From Schizochytrium sp. TIO01 (Eukaryota > Protista > Bigyra: Labyrinthulomycetes): a stretch of 64,000 bases of DNA. The notes beneath the pieces were generated by a model that saw only the letters and a list, made by a program, of their open reading frames with translations, had not been told where the DNA came from and searched no databases. Location of the stretch: positions 310,001 through 374,000 of the forward strand of contig SMSO01000032.1 in the NCBI GenBank assembly GCA_004764695.1. Reading direction: 5' to 3'. The translations under genes were made by a program, and so were the position numbers. Below are positions 50,298 to 64,000 of the stretch, piece after piece; positions within the stretch are counted from its first letter, which is position 1, and each line of letters opens with the position of its first letter.

Positions 50298-50518
50298 TTT
50301 TCCCGCTAATAATAATGCAGTAATAATGCAGTAATAAATAAGTAATAAATAAGCAATTAGTAAGTAAACAATAAACTCAGCACCCATAACAGATCTAAGG
50401 AATCAATCATACACATATCTCATCATTTACCCACCTCTGTAAAGATCAGAGCAAAGGAGGGCAAAAAAGAAAGAACGAAAGACCGACAGACAGACAGTAG
50501 ACAGAGTCAGAGACAGAA

Positions 50519-50550
<32 letters not shown>

Positions 50551-51583
50551 CAAAACTAGGGATGTAGGGATGTATAGGACGTACGTACCTAACAAGGGCA
50601 AGAAGAATGCAGAAAGTAAAAAAAAAAAAAAAAAAAAACATTCAACCTGCCTGAAAAGGAAAAGAGGGAGAGAGTTCTGTTCCTGTTTCTGCACTGCTTT
50701 CAAAGTTATTTCACTTTTCTTTCTTTCTTTCTTTTCTTTTTCTTTTCTTTTTCTTTTCTTTTTCGGTCTCCCTTGAGAGCTGGAGCCAAGCGCCCCGCAC
50801 CAAGCGAACCGGCGCAGGAAAGAAGACCAGGAAGCAGCAGCTTTGCTTGCTTGCTTGCTTGTGCTTGTTGCCACTTCGACTGAGTGGCGCATGAAAGAAG
50901 AAGGAAAACTGGTCTAGGAGAAATTAAAAAAGGGACGCCCAGACCGGAGAGGAGGCTTCCAGGGCTCAGCGGTTTCTTCTTTGTTTGTGCGTTTACTTTA
51001 CAATCGACCCCAAAAGAAAGAAGAATGAGAGTACACGCGCGAAGATAGCAATATGCAGAAAGAATGTTTCTTTCTTTTCTTCCTTCCTCGACATGTATTG
51101 AGAACATTTTCATGTTTTTTCAATTTAAAAGCTCTTTCTATGTTCTTTTAAACGCACCCCGGGTCTGGTATTTGCGCCCCTTCTGCTTCTGCTTCTGCTT
51201 CAGCTTCTGCCGGTTCGCACTTTTTTTAAGATAGTTTTTATAATAACATAAGTGCTTATTTTAAGATTGTTTTTTAATCCTCTGCTTTTGCTGCTTCTTC
51301 ACTTTTCCTCTTCGTCTTTCGAAGAGACTATTAAAAAAATTGTTATTCACTACTTATCCTTTCATTCTTTCGCAAGTGTGGACCTGCTTGCCTTTCTCCA
51401 TTCTCTATCCTCTATTGTGCCTTCGCAGAGTCTGACCGGAGCAGAGGCGGGCAGTGGCGTTGCTCTCGCCGGATGAATTCTGCGTCAACGAAGAGACAAC
51501 GAAGGCATACATACCCCTCGAGGGCGGGCTGGTCGGCCCTTCAGGCAAAGGCTTGCTTTTCCATCGACGATGCCATCCATATT

Positions 51584-51624
51584 CTTTTCTTTTCTTTTCT
51601 TTTCTTTTCTTTTCTTTTCTTTTC
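51584..51624. repeat. (CTTTT)n pentanucleotide repeat
   Basis: About 8 units. Confidence 0.92.
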
Positions 51625-51760
51625 TGCTCCGTTTCCCATTTGGCAGTTTCTGCAGATCTGTTCTTGCGAAGAGTAAAAAGAAGGCATCAAACAGACCCAC
51701 AGAGAGGCAGATAAAACATTTTTCAACTGCAAAATCATCTGTGTATCTATCTATCACTTG

Positions 51761-51835
51761 TTCACTTCACTTCTTCACTTCACTTCACTTCACTTCACTT
51801 CACTTCACTTCACTTCACTTCAATTCACCTCACTT
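51761..51835. repeat. (CACTT)n pentanucleotide repeat
   Basis: About 12-14 units, degenerate at the ends. Confidence 0.94.
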
Positions 51836-52048
51836 TCGTGGAGAGAGAGCAAGCGAGGCGGAGCAAAGGCAAAGAAAGCCCGTCGAAAGGAACGAGTTTT
51901 TAGCCAAACGGAATGAGCGTGCGAAAGAAAAGAATGGGAAAGAAGATGAGTGAATGAAACATGAGAGGGGAAAATAAATAAGTTCGAAAGGTCTCCTTTC
52001 TCTTTGTTTTCCTCTGTTTGAACGCGAGAAAAGATTTCTCTCTTTCTC

Positions 52049-52088
<40 letters not shown>

Positions 52089-52101
52089 TCCTTCCTTCCT
52101 T
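52049..52101. repeat. (CTTT)n/(CCTT)n microsatellite
   Basis: Read directly. Confidence 0.9.
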
Positions 52102-52297
52102 CATTCCAAAATAAAAACAAAATCAAAAATAGTCATTTTATTCATCGAAATAATAATCACAGAAAGTATTCTTAAACTGAAAAAGAGGAAGGAAGAGCGA
52201 ATCCCCACTCTTTCAGCCCTCTAAGCCGGGCCGTCAGAGAGACCCACCCACCCTGTCCTATGGCGCCTGGAGAAGTAGCGGAGGGGAAAAAAATAAA

Positions 52298-52310
52298 ATA
52301 TATATATAAT
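52298..52310 (+). promoter_or_regulatory. candidate TATA-like element / AT-rich core promoter of the zinc-finger gene
   Basis: TATATATATAA beside a poly(A) tract, at the upstream edge of the ATG-free leader. Confidence 0.3.
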
Positions 52311-52751
52311 TTTTATTTAAAAAAAAAAAATAAAGAAAAGTGAGGGCGCAGAAAGAGAGAAAGAGAGAGGGAGAGAAAGAAAGGAAGATACATAGGAAGA
52401 AAGAGAAGTAAGGAATTGTAAGTAAGTAAGTAAAGGAAAGGAAAGGAAAGGAAAGTAAAAGAACAACCACATCCACAGCAGTAGAGATCGGCAAATACCA
52501 AAAGCGCAGCAAACAAACAAAAAGAAAAGAGAGAAAGAGAGAGAGAAAGAAAGAAGAATCGAGGAGAAGAAGAACCAAAAAGACGGAGTAAACGCGAAAC
52601 ATCTGTGGCGACCGCGAGAGCAAAAGAGGTTCAAGAAGAGGAGCGAAAGCAGCGAGCAAAAGCCAAAGGCAAAGCAAGCCAAAGAAAGGCAAAGGCGGCG
52701 GCGGCAGCAGGCGAGGACCTGACGGCAAGGAGGTCGCCAGCGGAGCGCAGG

Positions 52752-52772
52752 CAGCAGCAGCAGCAGCAGCAG
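52752..52772. repeat. (CAG)7 trinucleotide repeat in the putative leader
   Basis: Read directly. Confidence 0.9.
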
Positions 52773-54164
52773 GCAGGCTTGCCGCTGCGGAGGAGCTGAG
52801 CGGTCGGCAAGGCGCGAGGAGACGCCAAGTGGCTGGCTGCCTGACCGACTGACTGACGGAGCGAGCTAGACTTGGTGTTACCTAGTTTGGTAGCTAGGTA
52901 GCGCTGGTTGCTTGCCGCTGCGAAGCTAGCTTGCTGCATCGTGGCATTGGTGCTTGAGGAGTGCCTGGGTAGTCACGACGGCGAGGGGTGAAAAGCCTGA
53001 CAGACTCGTCTTCTTCGGGGAGGTGTAGTTGAACCTGGGTTTTGGGGGTTACTCGCGTCTTGTTCTTTTTGCAAGGCACGGACTGCTCTGTGCAACAGGG
53101 TTTTCGTTCTCTCTTCGCTTTTTTGAGGTGGTACACAACAAACCCACTCTCAAGGGTTGCGCTAACTTGCTTGCTGGTTAGCTTCTGGACGAACGGAGAT
53201 AGTTGAGCAGCAGAAACTTGTCTCTCTGGTTGATATCTCTCTTCGAGTCTGCCCTCTGTGCGACTGGCTATAGAACTCTTTTCTCTTCTTCTGTGATTAA
53301 ACGCCTTTATATCACAAATTGACTTTTTGGACAGGAGATCTTAGATTTCTTTCAAGCAGGACGCCAGAATACACCCTGAGAACGTGTTTTCAGCCTTTAG
53401 CTGATATTGCGGTTTGCCTTGTTTTTTTCTTCTTCTGCTACTTCGTGGAATTGTAGGAGACTCTTGTTGTTGTAATTCTCATCGTGAGGAAAAGAAAAAC
53501 TTGAGCTTTTACAAAATCATCGGTATTGTTCATACGACCCCGCTCCTTCATCGTTAGAATTTTGGTTGCAGTCGCAGCTTGCAAACGTTGCTTGCTAGCT
53601 TGTTTGAGGAGCCTTCCAGCTACATATTCTTGTTCGAGGGCGCTAGGCTCACGAATCAGACAAAGAGTTTATATTAGGACTTTCAATCCGTCGCACAAGT
53701 ACAATAACACAAGCTATAACGCTGCCTTGCTTCTCTGTTCACGAATTGGTCTTCTTTGCAATTCTCTTTGAGTTGTCATTTCAGTGACGGCAAGTGCAGA
53801 AACACATACGCATTCACCTCTTAGTTTTCCCAAACTTTCTGAGTCAGAAAACAAACACCAGGACATTAAATCACCTGATCTCAAAAGGAAAAGAACTCTA
53901 CAAGCGAACTGTGTGCAGATCATTGTCCATAGTTGTTGTTTTCTCCCAGCAAGCGACTGAGTATATCGCCCACCCTCTTTATTAAGTCCGACTTGGCCCT
54001 TTGGACCGTGTACGCTGCTCGAATTCTTTGGCTCTAGCCCCGCTCCGCTCGCACTTTCGCGCGGCTGCGGACCCGTGGCTGTTTGTCAAGGACGACACAT
54101 CTCGTGCCAGATCGTGCGTCTGCGTAAGCCCACGAATAAAGGCAAATCTCCAAACGCGGTGCTC

Positions 54165-54176
54165 ATGAATAAATGA
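54165..54176 (+). other. uORF1 (ATG AAT AAA TGA; MNK*), in frame with the main CDS
   Basis: First ATG after the 1.9-kb ATG-free stretch; 69 nt upstream of the main ATG. Confidence 0.55.
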
Positions 54177-54250
54177 TCATCGCCAGAACATCGGAACAGG
54201 AAACAAGCGTCGATACAGGCGCAAAAGCAGTCCATGTCAGGACACGATGA
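54173..54250 (+). other. uORF2 (25 aa, MIIARTSEQETSVDTGAKAVHVRTR*), out of frame and overlapping the main start codon
   Basis: Its ATG overlaps the uORF1 stop (ATGA). Its stop TGA at 54248-54250 lies inside the CDS. Confidence 0.55.
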
Positions 54251-56015
54251 TAGAAAAGACTCACAACCGCCAAGGTTCACACAAGCGGAATTAACAAACT
54301 TTTTGGGCTCCACCGGCCAATTTGGGCATCACAATTCTCCAGCTCTTGGAAACTTTGTTGCACCCTCCAATATTGAAGCCTTTGCAAAAGCACTTCAAGA
54401 ACAACAACAACACAATGCTTTTGCGTATTCCTCGTCACAGCAGACCTCATCATATCCTCATCACTCAGCGCAGGATCACATGCAATCGTCAGGTGCCGCA
54501 GCTGCTGCAGCAGCCGCAGCTGCACATGCAGCATTACGTCCTGGGGAGTTCCAACACTCATCATCTTCAGCAGCACGAAACTCTATCTCTTCCTTGCAAA
54601 CCTCAAGATACCCGCAATACTTTTACTCAGAGCCGCGCATTGAGGACCAAGCAGTAGCAGGGGCTTACCCCCCGCCTAATTATGTAGGGGCGGGTGGTCC
54701 CGGAGATAGTCGCAGCAGTAGTACAGGGGCATCCGGACAGTCCTCTCTTCACAACCCTTACGCCCATACGCAAGCACCTCATCATCATCACCAGCAGCAG
54801 CGTCACACACAATCCCAAACCCCTACTCACCTGCAAAATCACACCTCGTCCCATCAACAACAAAATGCTCACCCATCTCACCATCAATCCACGCTCAACA
54901 TTGCTCAGTATCAAATGGGCCACGTACCTTTCGGTGGCTATTCCACTGGGAATCCTCCCGGCGGCCCAGCCCCCCCTGCTGGAGTTACATCGCATTCCCA
55001 AACATCCCGCCATATCAATAACTCAAATCCTATGCAGCATGTTTTTGATAACAATTTGGCGCCATCCCTGCTGGGCAAGCGCAAGGGCAGGGATGATTTT
55101 GCAGAAGGTTCTCTCCCTGGTCATACAGCAGAAATCAGCCCTCTGATTAGCACAAGCTCCGCTGGAGACCCGGCCTCCTCCTTGGACAGTGGCAGCGGAG
55201 AGGGAGACCCACCCGATGCACCCCCTGCTCATGAACGCATTCGTGGCCGAAATTATATGGTCAAAGGATGTGTCAAACGCTGGGATGGTAAACGTTTCGC
55301 GCGCTGCTGTGATGCTCCCAATTGCAACAAGTTGGCCCAGGGAACGACCAATTATTGCAAGAATCATGGCGGTGGCTCTCGGTGCAAGGTGCAAGGGTGC
55401 ACCCGTGCCGCTCGTGGTGGGTCTGATAAATGTGCTGCACATGGTGGCGGAAAGCGCTGCGAGCATCCAGGATGTGAGCATGCTGCAATCGGTCGCAATT
55501 TGTGTCGCCGTCATGGTGGTGGTAAGGTCTGTAATGTTTCAGGATGTCAAAACAATGCTCGTGGCAAATCACATTATTGTGCTATGCACAAGAGCAGGGC
55601 GAAGATGGCACTATCCAACTCAGCCACACAAGCTGTACCCCATGGTGCAACTGAAACACGGACAGTCCCTCCGCTTCTTAGTGTTTCTTTGTCACCGTCA
55701 TTGCAGTCACAAGGTCCCTCATCCCAGTTTGCTGGCCCTATGCCCCCTTTCCATTCTTTCGAAGGACGAAACATTCCTCAATCACAACAAAATGTCATCC
55801 ATGGGCTTGCCGCTGCCGCTGCCGCAACCTCTTCCTCGTCTGCATCAGCTGGAGGACATCACCCTTCTTTCGTTGGTCAACAACACCACTTTCAACATCA
55901 GTCTCTCTACGGATCGCACGGTCTGCATCTTCCGCGATCCTCTTCTGCTTTTATTCAGCAAAACCCGGGTCCGCAACGATCTTCATCGTCCGGGTCGAGC
56001 TCCCCATATACGTGA
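54234..56015 (+). CDS. WRKY19-like (HGGG-repeat, C3H-type) zinc-finger protein, putative transcription regulator, 593 aa
   Basis: Long ORF with four Cx4Cx9-10Cx2H fingers joined by GGG linkers (CDAPNC..YCKNHGGG, CKVQGC..CAAHGGG, CEHPGC..CRRHGGG, CNVSGC..YCAMH; ~55308-55589). It also has a basic GKRKGR NLS-like motif and Q/H/S/A-rich disordered arms. Confidence 0.95.
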   Translation: MSGHDDRKDSQPPRFTQAELTNFLGSTGQFGHHNSPALGNFVAPSNIEAFAKALQEQQQHNAFAYSSSQQTSSYPHHSAQDHMQSSGAAAAAAAAAAHAALRPGEFQHSSSSAARNSISSLQTSRYPQYFYSEPRIEDQAVAGAYPPPNYVGAGGPGDSRSSSTGASGQSSLHNPYAHTQAPHHHHQQQRHTQSQTPTHLQNHTSSHQQQNAHPSHHQSTLNIAQYQMGHVPFGGYSTGNPPGGPAPPAGVTSHSQTSRHINNSNPMQHVFDNNLAPSLLGKRKGRDDFAEGSLPGHTAEISPLISTSSAGDPASSLDSGSGEGDPPDAPPAHERIRGRNYMVKGCVKRWDGKRFARCCDAPNCNKLAQGTTNYCKNHGGGSRCKVQGCTRAARGGSDKCAAHGGGKRCEHPGCEHAAIGRNLCRRHGGGKVCNVSGCQNNARGKSHYCAMHKSRAKMALSNSATQAVPHGATETRTVPPLLSVSLSPSLQSQGPSSQFAGPMPPFHSFEGRNIPQSQQNVIHGLAAAAAATSSSSASAGGHHPSFVGQQHHFQHQSLYGSHGLHLPRSSSAFIQQNPGPQRSSSSGSSSPYT

Positions 56016-57654
56016 ACCACATCATCAATCAACCAAACAGTCAATTTCTTAACACCGCAAATCTACTTTCTCAGAAACGGTTTATCCGGTAGATATACAT
56101 ACACTAGCAAGAATCAGATTATTCGACACAATACAAGTATCAAGTACTCACAAACAACATTCTAAATGACACGCAAACCTGAAACGTACTCTTTTACTGC
56201 ATATGTTCTTATTTTGTTTTCTCTACTTGCCCTTCTGTCCAGTCTCTAGTCCCAGCATGAAATGACTCCAAGAATCGACAAACTCTTTCTTACAGAACTA
56301 ATAATTTATGGATATGGCTTAAACGAATCAGCTATCGATATTTTTCCTTCTTCTTTGAGGGACAACAATGTAAATGGGTGCGTTTTAAAATCAAACCCCG
56401 TTTGATTTTTCATTGGATGTTTATATTATTCTGAGCGCATCTTGTTCATAAACTGCCAATACATAATATGATACTCAAATCGAACTGAGATTTGCTTTTT
56501 AAATCTGTGAAGATATTTCTTTTAACTCGTAATAATGCTAGGGCTACTTTGGTCTTGTTTTTAATTCTACTTCTGAAATTGAGTTTTCTGCCTGACAGAT
56601 TGTTCAGAAGCAATCGTAGAACCAGCAACTTCCTTTCTGCACCTACAACGTTCATTAGAACAGATCCTATCAAATAATTGAAGTTCCGTCTACACCTAGT
56701 GTCCACAGTACCAGCCTTTCATTACCTCTACTAACGTTACTAGCGCCAGAGTCTTTTCTAGGTCAGCAATTATCGATCACCATACAATCAAAGTTGGTCA
56801 TCCTAGTCCAAACCCACAAGTGATGTAAATTCGCTTTTATTTTGTGATTGTCCTTCTCTGCATGATTTTCTTAGCACATAGTATGTACAGGCTGACGTCG
56901 AGTCTTGTTATCTTGCATCAAGGTCTGTCTACATGTTAAAAAGCCCTTATGAACGGACTCTTGGATATACAAATCTCAAAATAGATATCATGCACCTTTG
57001 TTTGATGACCTTACATTTTTTTTTCACAACATCGTCCCTGCGCGTTCCATACGTTTGTACTATAGCTCTGCTGTGATTTCTGTGATTTCATTGACTTAAA
57101 ACGTAATGTTGATCCAGACCCGTCTCTTTGTGGCTCTATCTACTTTGGTTTGATTTCAACGACATGTTAGATCTGGCTAGCGCAGGCAGTTTAGAATTTG
57201 ATGGCAATCCATGTGACTTGCTTGGCAACATCTATAGATGTCTGAAACCTCTCGATTTATCCATTAATATCTCATTTCCATTTATCAATCAAACAAAAAC
57301 ATCACTGTCTTAGATTTAATTATTTGTTTTGATTGCTATAATCCACGAAAAACTAGGCACAGTATTTGCATGTGATTGTTGAAGAAGCATGTCAAAGTCG
57401 CTGTTGGTACGTTTTTACAAAATCCATATCCTCAAGTTAAATCTTTAGCTTCATATAGCACTAAGTCATAATATGTCAAATATAACTTCAAAATGAAAGA
57501 TTCATTAGGATTAATCAGAGGAGTCATTTGTTCTCTTCAACTACTACTTACTACATCATCCTAAATACCTGCAATTAAAGACGAAAATTTTAGTCTCTGA
57601 TAAAACGCAAGCGAATATCCCTGCTGTAGACCGTCCAGTTTCCAAGAACTGAGT

Positions 57655-58720
57655 ATGAACCCACCTTATTCGCCAATGAGCAATGAAGCAAGCACCATAT
57701 CGGAAACACATGATCGAATGTGCATGTCAGTTGAAAATCAGGTCAGCAGGCCAGTACAGACTACTGAAGGTGTCTCAGAGGCAATAACCGATGCTTTAGA
57801 ATTGCTGAAAGATGGTTTTGGTCAGCTTGAGGTTGACTGTAAAGATTAAGGCAAGGGTTTTGATGAAGGCTTTAAGAAGGTTGATCTAAGAGTTCGCAAA
57901 CTGCTGTCCTAGAGTTCATTCTCCAGGACAGATGGACTCATGCAGTAATTTAGGAGGATAAGACATTCTCAAAAGGTGTTGGAGATGATCGATCGATTCA
58001 AATTACACCTTACTTGGATGTAGTAGCTAATGTGTAGTCACACTTCTAATTCTTGGCTCTGGCAGCCACATGAACCTGGCTGACTACCCTTGCTTTATTG
58101 TAAGCCCTATGTCTGTGAGGGCTTCACAAAGGGGCGCCAATAACTCTAGCAATGTCTTGTTCACTAGTTCCTTCGATTAGAGATCTCAGCAAGAATAATG
58201 AGCACAATCATTTTTAAAAAGCCATTGCTAGAGATATTTTTTGCTTATGACAATTTTGTATTCACGATGAGCTAGGTATGGAAGAACAGTTTCAAGATCC
58301 ACGCATATGCAACGCGATATTTGCAGCAGAGTCTCAACACCTTCATTCTACATCAACAAAGGACCTACCTCCCCTAGATGAATATCTCCCCATGTTAAAC
58401 CATATTTCATTCGACATTCTAAATAGTATCATCGTGCAGATTTTTTAGAACCAGTTTCTAGAGTCGTGTGAGCTAGCGAAAGCTGTCTCAGACGTGGGCC
58501 CAAAGGCGACCCAGGCAAATACTGGTTTGGCTGCAAAAGTATATTTTCGTTGACAAGGTCTAAGGCTGAACAACTTTGTACTAGAAAAATCAGGAATGTT
58601 AATGCTAAATCAGATTTGCTTCGAAAGAGTAGCATAGTAGATTATCAATAGTCAGAAGTGCTATGGCAATACCTTCGAGTAAAAACGATCAATACACCTG
58701 GATTTCTTGCCTATATGAAG
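57655..58720 (+). pseudogene. possible decayed gene (coiled-coil-like fragment plus downstream helical fragments)
   Basis: EAITDALELLKDGFGQLEVDCKD*GKGFDEGFKKVDLRVRKLLS* continues through a TAA. A second frame reads IHDELGMEEQFQDPRICNAIF...DILNSIIVQIF*NQFLESCELAKAVSDVG... Confidence 0.25.
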
Positions 58721-62678: not shown

Positions 62679-63104
62679 AAGTGGAAGTGTCTGTCTCTTC
62701 AATTTCTTTTCCTTTGAATATGATGATTATGTACGATAATGCTGAATAAATAGATGAATGAAATTCTCTTTTCTTTCACTTGACTGGAATAAATGGAATC
62801 ACGAACTGGAATAAATTGGAATGAAGTGCAATGTATGGAATAAAATCAACATTTTTTCACCTTCGTTGATTCTCAAGTATTCGTGGGCTTGACTCATTCC
62901 ATGCACGCACCAGCATGATGCAAACCTGAAAGGCGACGCTGGCGAGGCGCGCTTGCCTTCGCGACCCGCTTCACGACCCGGAGCGGGACACACTTAGCAG
63001 CGATAGGGCTGGTCCACTCTTTCGCTTTGCTCTCCTTGTGAACTGGGTCCTCTCGTCCATTGCGCTGGTCGTGTGTGGACACCTACTCTACTTCTCGCCC
63101 AAAG

Positions 63105-63314
63105 GTAAACGATAGAACCAAACAAGCAAACAAACACATAAACCCGTAGCAAGCAATCGCACTGCTGCCTCTGCTGTTGTTGTTGTTGTTGTAGTTGTTG
63201 TAGCTCACGTTCGTGTTGTGAGAGCAATTGACAATTATAAACTCCTGAGAGACCTGGCTTGACAAACGTGGGGACGTACTATTCCCAAACTCGCAGCAAA
63301 GAAACAATTTTCAG
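63105..63314 (+). other. candidate 5'-UTR intron of the 63376 gene
   Basis: AAG|GTAAAC donor at 63105 and AATTTTCAG| acceptor at 63314; contains a (TTG)n tract. Motif inference only. Confidence 0.3.
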
Positions 63315-63375
63315 ATCTGGGGACCTTGAACAGCTGGCTGCGCCAGATTAGCGCGGTGATCAACGACTCGTTACA

Positions 63376-64000
63376 ATGACGACCTCAAACTCGACGTGTA
63401 GTGGCTCTGCGTTCGTATGGGTCGAGGCAAACCAGCTTGCGCCAACATCACTGGACTGGAGTCTCAATGGTAAATACTCGCCAGCATTTAAGCGCGATGT
63501 GCTTAACCTTGTTATTCCTGCAATGACCTTGAGCGGACTCTCCCCTCGTATGTGCAGTGATGCGGCTGTGCTTGCCATTGTTACTCTCGAGAATGGAACC
63601 CAAGTCGAGTACTCCGGTGAATGGTCAGACAGAGAACGCGGTTATATTGTAGCTGCTTTGCCGGGCTCGCCACTTGGTACTGTGGATCTCTACATCGACG
63701 ACCGCTTCATTACGTCGCTCGACTACAACCCAATTGACTCAACACTAAAATTCCACATTATTTACACAATAATCGGTGTGCTTGCCTTAGCGCTTTTCTG
63801 GGTGCTCATGTTTATGGCAATTGACGTAATACGTAGATGGTGTAAGCGTCGTCACCAGCGTAAAGCAGAAGGCTCCTCGCGTATCCGTGCAGCTAAATCT
63901 CTCCACGGAGGAGACGAGGAGGAAGAAGAAGCCGACTCCGTCTCTATCGAACCTGATAGTTCACAACAAGTAGATATGACAAACACAAACTTATTGCGTC
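63376..64000 (+). CDS. membrane protein with N-terminal beta-rich (probably extracytoplasmic) domain and a TM helix; 3'-partial
   Basis: Open frame from ATG 63376 to the window end (208 codons; preceding in-frame stop at 63349-63351). Begins MTTSNSTCSGSAFVWVEANQ..., has N-glycosylation sequons NST and NGT, a TM helix IIYTIIGVLALALFWVLMFMAI (63757-63822), then RRWCKRRHQRK (positive-inside) and acidic DEEEEE. Confidence 0.88.
   Translation, partial: MTTSNSTCSGSAFVWVEANQLAPTSLDWSLNGKYSPAFKRDVLNLVIPAMTLSGLSPRMCSDAAVLAIVTLENGTQVEYSGEWSDRERGYIVAALPGSPLGTVDLYIDDRFITSLDYNPIDSTLKFHIIYTIIGVLALALFWVLMFMAIDVIRRWCKRRHQRKAEGSSRIRAAKSLHGGDEEEEEADSVSIEPDSSQQVDMTNTNLLR

What the first reader, a model, noticed from the sequence alone, without database searches (positions are those of the whole stretch)
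52263..54164. 1.9-kb strand-specific ATG desert: a giant AUG-free 5' leader
Seen: reading base by base, there is no ATG on the + strand for 1902 nt immediately upstream of the zinc-finger gene. By hand count ~68 AT dinucleotides occur and none is followed by G, while the reverse-complement CAT occurs ~17 times. In the other intervals I checked, ATG-free runs were only ~400-450 nt. The stretch begins beside a TATATATA/poly(A) element. Known: scanning ribosomes impose selection against upstream AUGs only in exonic leader sequence. Inference: the mRNA carries a largely unspliced leader of up to ~1.9 kb kept AUG-free by selection, so ribosomes reach the uORF cassette at its end. This points to translational regulation of this factor.
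Basis: partly seen in the sequence, partly recalled or inferred. Interest (0 to 1): 0.75.

Follow-up and report, generated by a model that had tools for sequence, protein, structure and literature searches.

The report
Long AUG-free leader, protist zinc-finger gene
A zinc-finger gene of a marine protist is preceded by 1.9 kb with no ATG on the coding strand, most of which likely forms an unusually long unspliced mRNA leader kept free of start codons so that ribosomes would reach the gene, a design already known from fungal regulatory genes.

Summary
The next-longest gap in the window is 535, and 450 shuffled windows never exceed 1570. CAT is not depleted, so the effect is strand-specific. In three public runs that the tool guesses are RNA, one contig each runs without a splice joint from about 52540-52620 through the 593-aa WRKY19-type zinc-finger ORF. 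The leader is therefore likely at least 1.55-1.63 kb and unspliced. The first 270 nt of the desert are ATG-free by composition alone. The leader ends in a 3-codon uORF whose stop overlaps the AUG of a 25-codon uORF that overlaps the main start; their function is untested. The organism is a thraustochytrid-like protist. The closest precedent is Candida WOR1 (about 2-kb 5' UTR, no AUG uORFs), and this scan has already noted similar deserts in fungi. The start site, conservation in other species and regulation could not be tested. Verdict: a real, strong case of a known rule; new member of a known kind.

The parts
52263..54164 (+). ATG-free stretch (1902 nt) on the coding strand
52263..52535 (+). 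Purine-rich, low-complexity 5' part; ATG-free by composition (1.4 expected); holds one TATA-like heptamer at 52299; promoter or start of the leader, undecided
52536..54233 (+). Likely unspliced 5' leader; contigs of RNA-guess runs begin at about 52536 (X10), 52574 (X1), 52617 (X2), computed from contig overhangs
52877..52902 (+). Predicted 11-bp hairpin inside a cluster of AGCT/CTAG palindromes; significance doubtful
   Evidence: one strain change breaks a pair
54165..54176 (+). uORF1, Met-Asn-Lys-stop, in frame with the main ORF, C at -3, stop 57 nt before the main AUG
54173..54250 (+). uORF2, 25 codons; its AUG overlaps the stop of uORF1; runs out of frame across the main start; T at -3
54234..56015 (+). 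Main ORF, 593 aa, low-complexity arms around WRKY19-type zinc-finger repeats (PF24906); T at -3; no WRKY motif
   Evidence: 7 of 9 strain substitutions synonymous
55305..55601 (+). Four C-X4-C-X9/10-C-X2-H repeats, preceded by a subfamily motif shared with 7 aligned relatives
56016..56530 (+). Likely 3' UTR; main contigs of the RNA-guess runs end at 56153, 56273 and 56530

Best explanation
The 1.9-kb stretch has no ATG on the coding strand only, and at least 1.55-1.63 kb of it is likely an unspliced 5' leader of the zinc-finger mRNA from which selection has likely removed upstream AUGs because scanning ribosomes would otherwise start too early. Shown: the strand-specific absence of ATG, and contigs bridging leader and ORF without a joint. 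Inferred: that the runs are RNA, that the leader is scanned from the cap, and that selection is the cause. At the end of the leader, ribosomes would meet two AUGs in apparently weak context. Starting at uORF1 (3 codons) would carry the ribosome past the AUG of uORF2 and allow re-initiation at the main AUG 57 nt later. Leaking past uORF1 and starting at uORF2 would skip the main AUG. The cassette most likely damps and tunes output of a dosage-sensitive regulator; this last step is the weakest (about 0.4 on its own).
For: 0 ATG vs 13.9 expected in 52536-54164 while CAT is 15 vs 13.5, and only the exact AUG is lost, not near-cognates: what a ribosome reads, not what a two-stranded mutation process does. 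One contig in each of X1, X2, X10 (3 studies, 21-39 million letters against 63-66 million for the DNA-sized runs) spans leader and ORF, and no joint is listed in the leader. A protein one residue different (P0001) is on record from a transcriptome source, longest contig 3627 nt for a 1782-nt ORF (which source holds the longest contig, and how its non-coding part is split, was not seen). The leader varies freely between strains (19 substitutions in 1380 nt against 9 in 1782 nt of ORF, P 0.008, plus 4 indels), so the constraint is not on primary sequence. The third-longest + strand gap (458 nt) also ends at an ORF start, 63376. Purifying selection on upstream AUGs is general (PMC7889888, passages). 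Both tolerated AUGs lie in the last 70 of about 1700 nt (P about 0.04 as one cluster).
Against: No run is on record as RNA; the label is the tool's guess. Contigs cannot show a start site, strand or isoform share, so most molecules could start further down. 0 of 19 substitutions and 0 of 4 indels create an ATG, but only 1.0 was expected (P 0.35), so polymorphism gives no test of selection (19 rows of the variant table were not shown). No orthologous leader could be obtained. The 'weak context' reading rests on the general Kozak rule (recalled) and two neighbouring genes with A at -3. AUGs close to the ORF are usually the most depleted (PMC7889888), so the two uORFs could also be tolerated leftovers.
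Confidence: 0.72

Rival explanations
1. Dispersed or alternative start sites ('ATG desert' promoter logic): transcription starts at many places across the stretch, and ATG is purged so that every start gives the same protein. The longest isoform would be only one of several.
For: The three contigs begin at different places (about 52536, 52574, 52617) and contig depth is one flat number, so internal starts are invisible. A cluster of CTAG palindromes at 52860-52930 (4 in 120 nt against 2.6 per kb) could be DNA sites. Hox leaders proved shorter than reported on CAGE (PMC8892498, abstract).
Against: The described class is depleted about 1 kb on both sides of the start (PMC2672154, passages). Here ATG is not depleted upstream (17 vs 11.7 expected in 50500-52259). 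It is also not exclusive of the best explanation, since the purge still acts through scanning.
Confidence: 0.15
2. The first AUG (54165) or a non-AUG codon upstream is the true or an additional start: read-through of the single in-frame TGA would give an N-terminally extended protein, or the 71-codon open frame 53961-54176 encodes a regulatory peptide.
For: 54165 is in frame with the main ORF with one stop between. The frame is open for 71 codons. The main AUG has T at -3.
Against: All 5 of 5 strain substitutions in that frame change the amino acid and one strain has a 1-nt deletion in it. No variant of the TGA is listed in 4 runs. The TGA is followed by T, not the read-through context C (recalled).
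Confidence: 0.06
3. Most of the stretch is an intron or unprocessed pre-mRNA, and the absence of ATG has another cause.
For: GT[AG]AG donor-like words occur at 52340-52426, 53484 and 54124. Contigs drop rare forms.
Against: No joint in the leader in 3 of 3 RNA-guess runs. An intron gives no reason for a one-strand loss of ATG.
Confidence: 0.04
4. Chance, low complexity or a DNA-level mutation or methylation bias (6mA at ApT is reported downstream of start sites in Aurantiochytrium).
For: The first 270 nt are explained by composition. PMC12695648 (passages) reports three 6mA peaks in A. limacinum.
Against: P about 1e-7 for the rest; 0 of 450 shuffled windows reach 1905. ApT is its own reverse complement, so a DNA process should remove CAT as well, and CAT is at expectation.
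Confidence: 0.03

Closest known systems
Candida albicans WOR1 5' UTR and the long leaders of CZF1, EFG1, RFG1 (PMC4552353, passages read)
   Same: [quoted passage not shown]
   Different: Here the host is a stramenopile, the leader ends in two AUG uORFs, and neither the start site nor an effect on translation has been measured.
General purifying selection against upstream AUGs (PMC7889888, passages read)
   Same: Sense-strand loss of AUG from the leader.
   Different: Complete over 1.6 kb, and the only AUGs kept are those nearest the ORF, where depletion is usually strongest.
ATF4 two-uORF switch (review PMC13631847, passages read)
   Same: A short first uORF and a second uORF that overlaps the main ORF out of frame.
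   Different: In ATF4 ribosomes re-initiate at uORF2 after uORF1. Here the AUG of uORF2 overlaps the stop of uORF1, so forward re-initiation would miss it and the delayed re-initiation switch cannot work the same way.
Plant conserved-peptide uORF group HG9, At5g64550/At5g09670/At1g64140 (PMC2075485 and PMC3426882, passages read)
   Same: The main ORF has the same CX4-7CX10CX2HX5 repeat type, and the leader carries uORFs.
   Different: HG9 uORFs encode a conserved peptide; here uORF1 is 3 codons and conservation is unknown. Orthology to the plant genes was not tested.
'ATG desert' core promoters (Lee et al. 2005, seen only through PMC2672154 passages)
   Same: Kilobase-scale loss of ATG near a gene start.
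   Different: That class spans both sides of the start site in mammals; here the loss lies downstream of the contig 5' ends and not upstream.

Membership tests
Long AUG-free leader of a regulator (WOR1 type) | Kilobase-scale transcribed, unspliced leader | tested here: met
   3 of 3 RNA-guess runs bridge at least 1.55-1.63 kb into the ORF with no joint; RNA status is a guess and the start site is not mapped
Long AUG-free leader of a regulator (WOR1 type) | No AUG-initiated uORF in the leader | tested here: not met
   None for 1.55-1.63 kb, but two in the last 69 nt
Long AUG-free leader of a regulator (WOR1 type) | Gene encodes a transcriptional regulator | tested here: inconclusive
   PF24906 repeats, no WRKY motif; function of the repeat is called unknown in PMC3426882
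Long AUG-free leader of a regulator (WOR1 type) | Leader changes translation efficiency | not testable with these tools
   Needs reporters or polysome/ribosome profiling
ATF4-type uORF switch | Short first uORF plus out-of-frame uORF overlapping the main ORF | tested here: met
   54165-54176 and 54173-54250
ATF4-type uORF switch | uORF2 start lies downstream of the uORF1 stop, so that re-initiating ribosomes can take it | tested here: not met
   AUG at 54173-54175 overlaps the stop at 54174-54176
ATF4-type uORF switch | Induction when eIF2 is phosphorylated | not testable with these tools
   Experiment needed
ATG-desert core promoter | ATG depleted about 1 kb both upstream and downstream of the start site | tested here: not met
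   17 ATG vs 11.7 expected in 50500-52259; the start site itself is only bracketed
ATG-desert core promoter | TATA-less with multiple start sites | not testable with these tools
   One TATA-like heptamer; contigs cannot show starts
Plant CPuORF group HG9 | Main ORF with CX4-7CX10CX2HX5 tandem repeats | tested here: met
   Four repeats, three with X10 and one with X9
Plant CPuORF group HG9 | uORF peptide conserved across species | not testable with these tools
   No orthologous DNA found
WRKY transcription factors | WRKY DNA-binding domain | tested here: not met
   Only Zf_WRKY19 at E<=0.1 in Pfam; no WRKY motif

The most novel reading that the evidence does not exclude
The leader is a 1.7-kb AUG-purged runway that delivers every scanning ribosome to an inverted ATF4 switch: a 3-codon uORF whose stop hides the AUG of an inhibitory overlapping uORF, so the protein is made only by ribosomes that take the first weak AUG and re-initiate 57 nt later. 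Output would then track start-codon stringency or initiator-tRNA supply. uORF control of this zinc-finger family would be shared between thraustochytrids and land plants (HG9), by ancestry or convergence.
Probability: 0.12. Interest if true: 0.65.

Novelty: new member of a known kind. Interest (0 to 1): 0.36.

Why it matters
It extends the pattern of a very long, AUG-purged leader on a putative regulator from fungi to a thraustochytrid, a genetically tractable and industrially used group (recalled) for which my searches found no study of 5' leaders. It suggests that one-strand ATG deserts can flag long leaders and candidate regulators from DNA alone. The terminal two-uORF cassette is a cheap reporter test of an unusual uORF geometry. 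The principle itself is established, so the surprise is moderate.

Tried and rejected
No whole genome is held, so the genome-wide scan for other deserts could not be run. No RNA holder is listed on record; the 18 'RNA?' labels are guesses. The three RNA-guess runs show no cover at 56605-57750 where X19 does. Their ends differ, so this is only a weak hint that they are RNA and is not counted as evidence. A rough sum of covered length minus words lost to variants reproduces the word shares of X1, X2, X10 (0.70, 0.69, 0.62 against 0.70, 0.68, 0.61), which hints that they hold little upstream of 52530; reads were laid on 52785-58500 only, so this is untested. Orthologous leaders: 0 of the 80 loci kept from the metagenome scan (557 confirmed relatives, scan cut at 22 of 64 parts) carry the subfamily motif. 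The motif pattern gave 2 chance hits in prokaryote genomes and 0 in viral contigs. The organisms behind relatives P0006, P0036, P0037, P0101, P0127, P0146 and P0176 remain unknown. Rfam on 51500-56800: 5 matches, all far below gathering score, none inside the desert. RNA structure: 2 of 30 windows reach z -3.6 and -4.5 (25 shuffles each), but the 221-nt region gives z -1.8 and a strain change breaks a stem pair. A coding frame in the desert was rejected (no + strand stop-to-stop frame over 88 codons). Polymorphism test of selection: no power (P 0.35). ESM Atlas gave only WRKY19-type clusters, feature scores under 0.9. No thraustochytrid leader or uORF study came up in literature searches; supplements were not read and could list UTR lengths.

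Full report
Observation. The + strand has an ATG at 52260 and the next at 54165. The stretch's own dinucleotides predict 17.1 ATG. None of 2000 shuffles had fewer than 5, and none of 450 block-shuffled windows had a gap above 1570 on either strand. The first 273 nt are purine-rich and expect only 1.4 ATG. The signal lies in 52536-54164: 0 against 13.9, while CAT is 15 against 13.5 and CTG, GTG, TTG and ACG are at or above expectation. Only the exact AUG on the sense strand is missing, which points to translation initiation and not to a DNA-level bias.

Gene and organism. The ORF 54234-56015 (593 aa) has Zf_WRKY19 repeats as its only Pfam match, four C-X4-C-X9/10-C-X2-H units and no WRKY motif. 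Seven of nine strain substitutions in it are synonymous. A motif just before the repeats is shared with seven relatives at 44-59% identity. The best named relative of the neighbouring MORN/WW gene is from Hondaea fermentalgiana at 62%, and scan notes on this genome point to an Aurantiochytrium-like host (unchecked AI notes), so the host is most likely a thraustochytrid. Between that gene (start 1915, - strand) and the desert, none of 62 frames of 92 codons or more reaches a Pfam cut-off. The gene seems to sit behind about 50 kb of gene-poor DNA; intron-split genes could be missed.

Transcript evidence. One search listed 24 runs from 10 studies. None is on record as RNA; 18 are guessed RNA (21-49 million letters) and 6 are 63-66 million letters. 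I laid 4 of the 24 on 52785-58500. X1, X2 and X10 (three studies) each have one contig that covers the laid part of the leader and the whole ORF with no joint in the leader. They overhang the start of the laid stretch by 211, 168 and 249 letters, which puts their 5' ends at about 52574, 52617 and 52536; they end at 56530, 56273 and 56153. The DNA-sized run X19 begins at about 52440 and goes on to 57877. If these are RNA, the leader is at least 1548-1629 nt to the first AUG and 1617-1698 nt to the main AUG. P0001, one residue different from the window's protein, is on record from a transcriptome source with a longest contig of 3627 nt, which fits, though I could not see that contig. Limits: contigs show no start site, strand or isoform share, and the region upstream of 52785 is known only from overhang lengths.

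Variation. Among the rows shown (19 rows were not shown), the leader has 19 substitutions and 4 indels in 1380 nt against 9 substitutions in 1782 nt of ORF (P 0.008). The leader sequence is loosely constrained. None of these changes makes an ATG, but only 1.0 was expected, so this is no test. The 71-codon open frame ending at 54176 takes 5 of 5 amino-acid changes and a frameshift, so it is unlikely to encode a peptide.

The uORF cassette. uORF1 (54165-54176) reads Met-Asn-Lys-stop, in frame with the main ORF, and ends 57 nt before it. The AUG of uORF2 (54173) overlaps that stop, and uORF2 runs 25 codons out of frame across the main start. All three AUGs have a pyrimidine at -3; the two neighbouring genes have A (n = 2). 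Both tolerated AUGs fall in the last 70 of about 1700 nt (P about 0.04 as one cluster). The inferred mechanism is that taking uORF1 shields the ribosome from uORF2 and allows re-initiation at 54234, while leaking to uORF2 skips it. This resembles ATF4 in its parts (PMC13631847, passages) but not in geometry. It would be closer in effect to poor-context uORFs that sense start-codon stringency (PMC8892498, abstract). No step of this is shown.

Comparison. The Candida WOR1 leader is about 2 kb, has no AUG uORFs and lowers translation; CZF1, EFG1 and RFG1 have 1.1-2.1 kb leaders (PMC4552353, passages). Upstream AUG depletion is general, and strongest near the ORF (PMC7889888, passages). Mammalian ATG-desert promoters are depleted on both sides of the start (PMC2672154, passages), which is not met here (17 against 11.7 upstream). 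Plant genes with the same repeat type form conserved-uORF group HG9 (PMC2075485, PMC3426882, passages); orthology was not tested. Reported 6mA at ApT in A. limacinum (PMC12695648, passages) is strand-symmetric in sequence and cannot explain a one-strand loss (inference). This scan noted 1.6-kb and 2-kb ATG deserts before a fungal cyclin and a fungal GATA factor (unchecked). Eight literature searches returned no study of thraustochytrid leaders.

What failed. No genome is held. No orthologous DNA was found. Rfam gave nothing, and the one hairpin is doubtful.

Verdict. The feature is real and most likely a long, unspliced, scanned leader purged of AUG (0.72). A regulatory role for the end cassette is plausible but open. 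It is a new member of a known kind; interest 0.36.

Noticed in passing
window 2100-52300: About 50 kb with no recognisable gene upstream of the zinc-finger gene: 0 of 62 frames of 92 codons or more reach a Pfam cut-off (one sub-threshold DUF4776 match). Fits a large regulatory region; intron-split genes could be missed.
   Followed up: partly
window 62918-63376 (+): The third-longest ATG gap on the + strand (458 nt) ends at the start of an ORF with a predicted membrane segment that runs off the window; probably a second, shorter AUG-free leader.
   Followed up: partly
window 57750-58320: Multi-copy repeat: summed depth up to 4360 against 25 in X19, with many diverged copies, also in the RNA-guess runs.
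   Followed up: no
window 56273: The X2 contig goes on for about 280 letters that do not match here; a 17-letter probe of them is not found in the window. Strain insertion, distant 3' exon or chimera.
   Followed up: partly
window 54217: All 4 laid runs differ from the window at this base. Their allele is silent in uORF2 and gives an in-frame CTG six codons before the main AUG.
   Followed up: partly
proteins P0006, P0037: Subfamily relatives have short ORFs on long contigs (345 aa, longest contig 3601; 465 aa, 3907), a hint that they may carry long untranslated regions too; their DNA was not seen.
   Followed up: no
window 55230-55310: A motif of about 25 residues before the zinc-finger repeats (Tyr, Gly, Lys, Trp, Gly invariant in 8 aligned sequences) marks a subfamily that Pfam does not separate.
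   Followed up: partly
window 1-1915 (-): MORN-repeat and WW-domain gene, 62% identical to a Hondaea fermentalgiana protein.
   Followed up: yes
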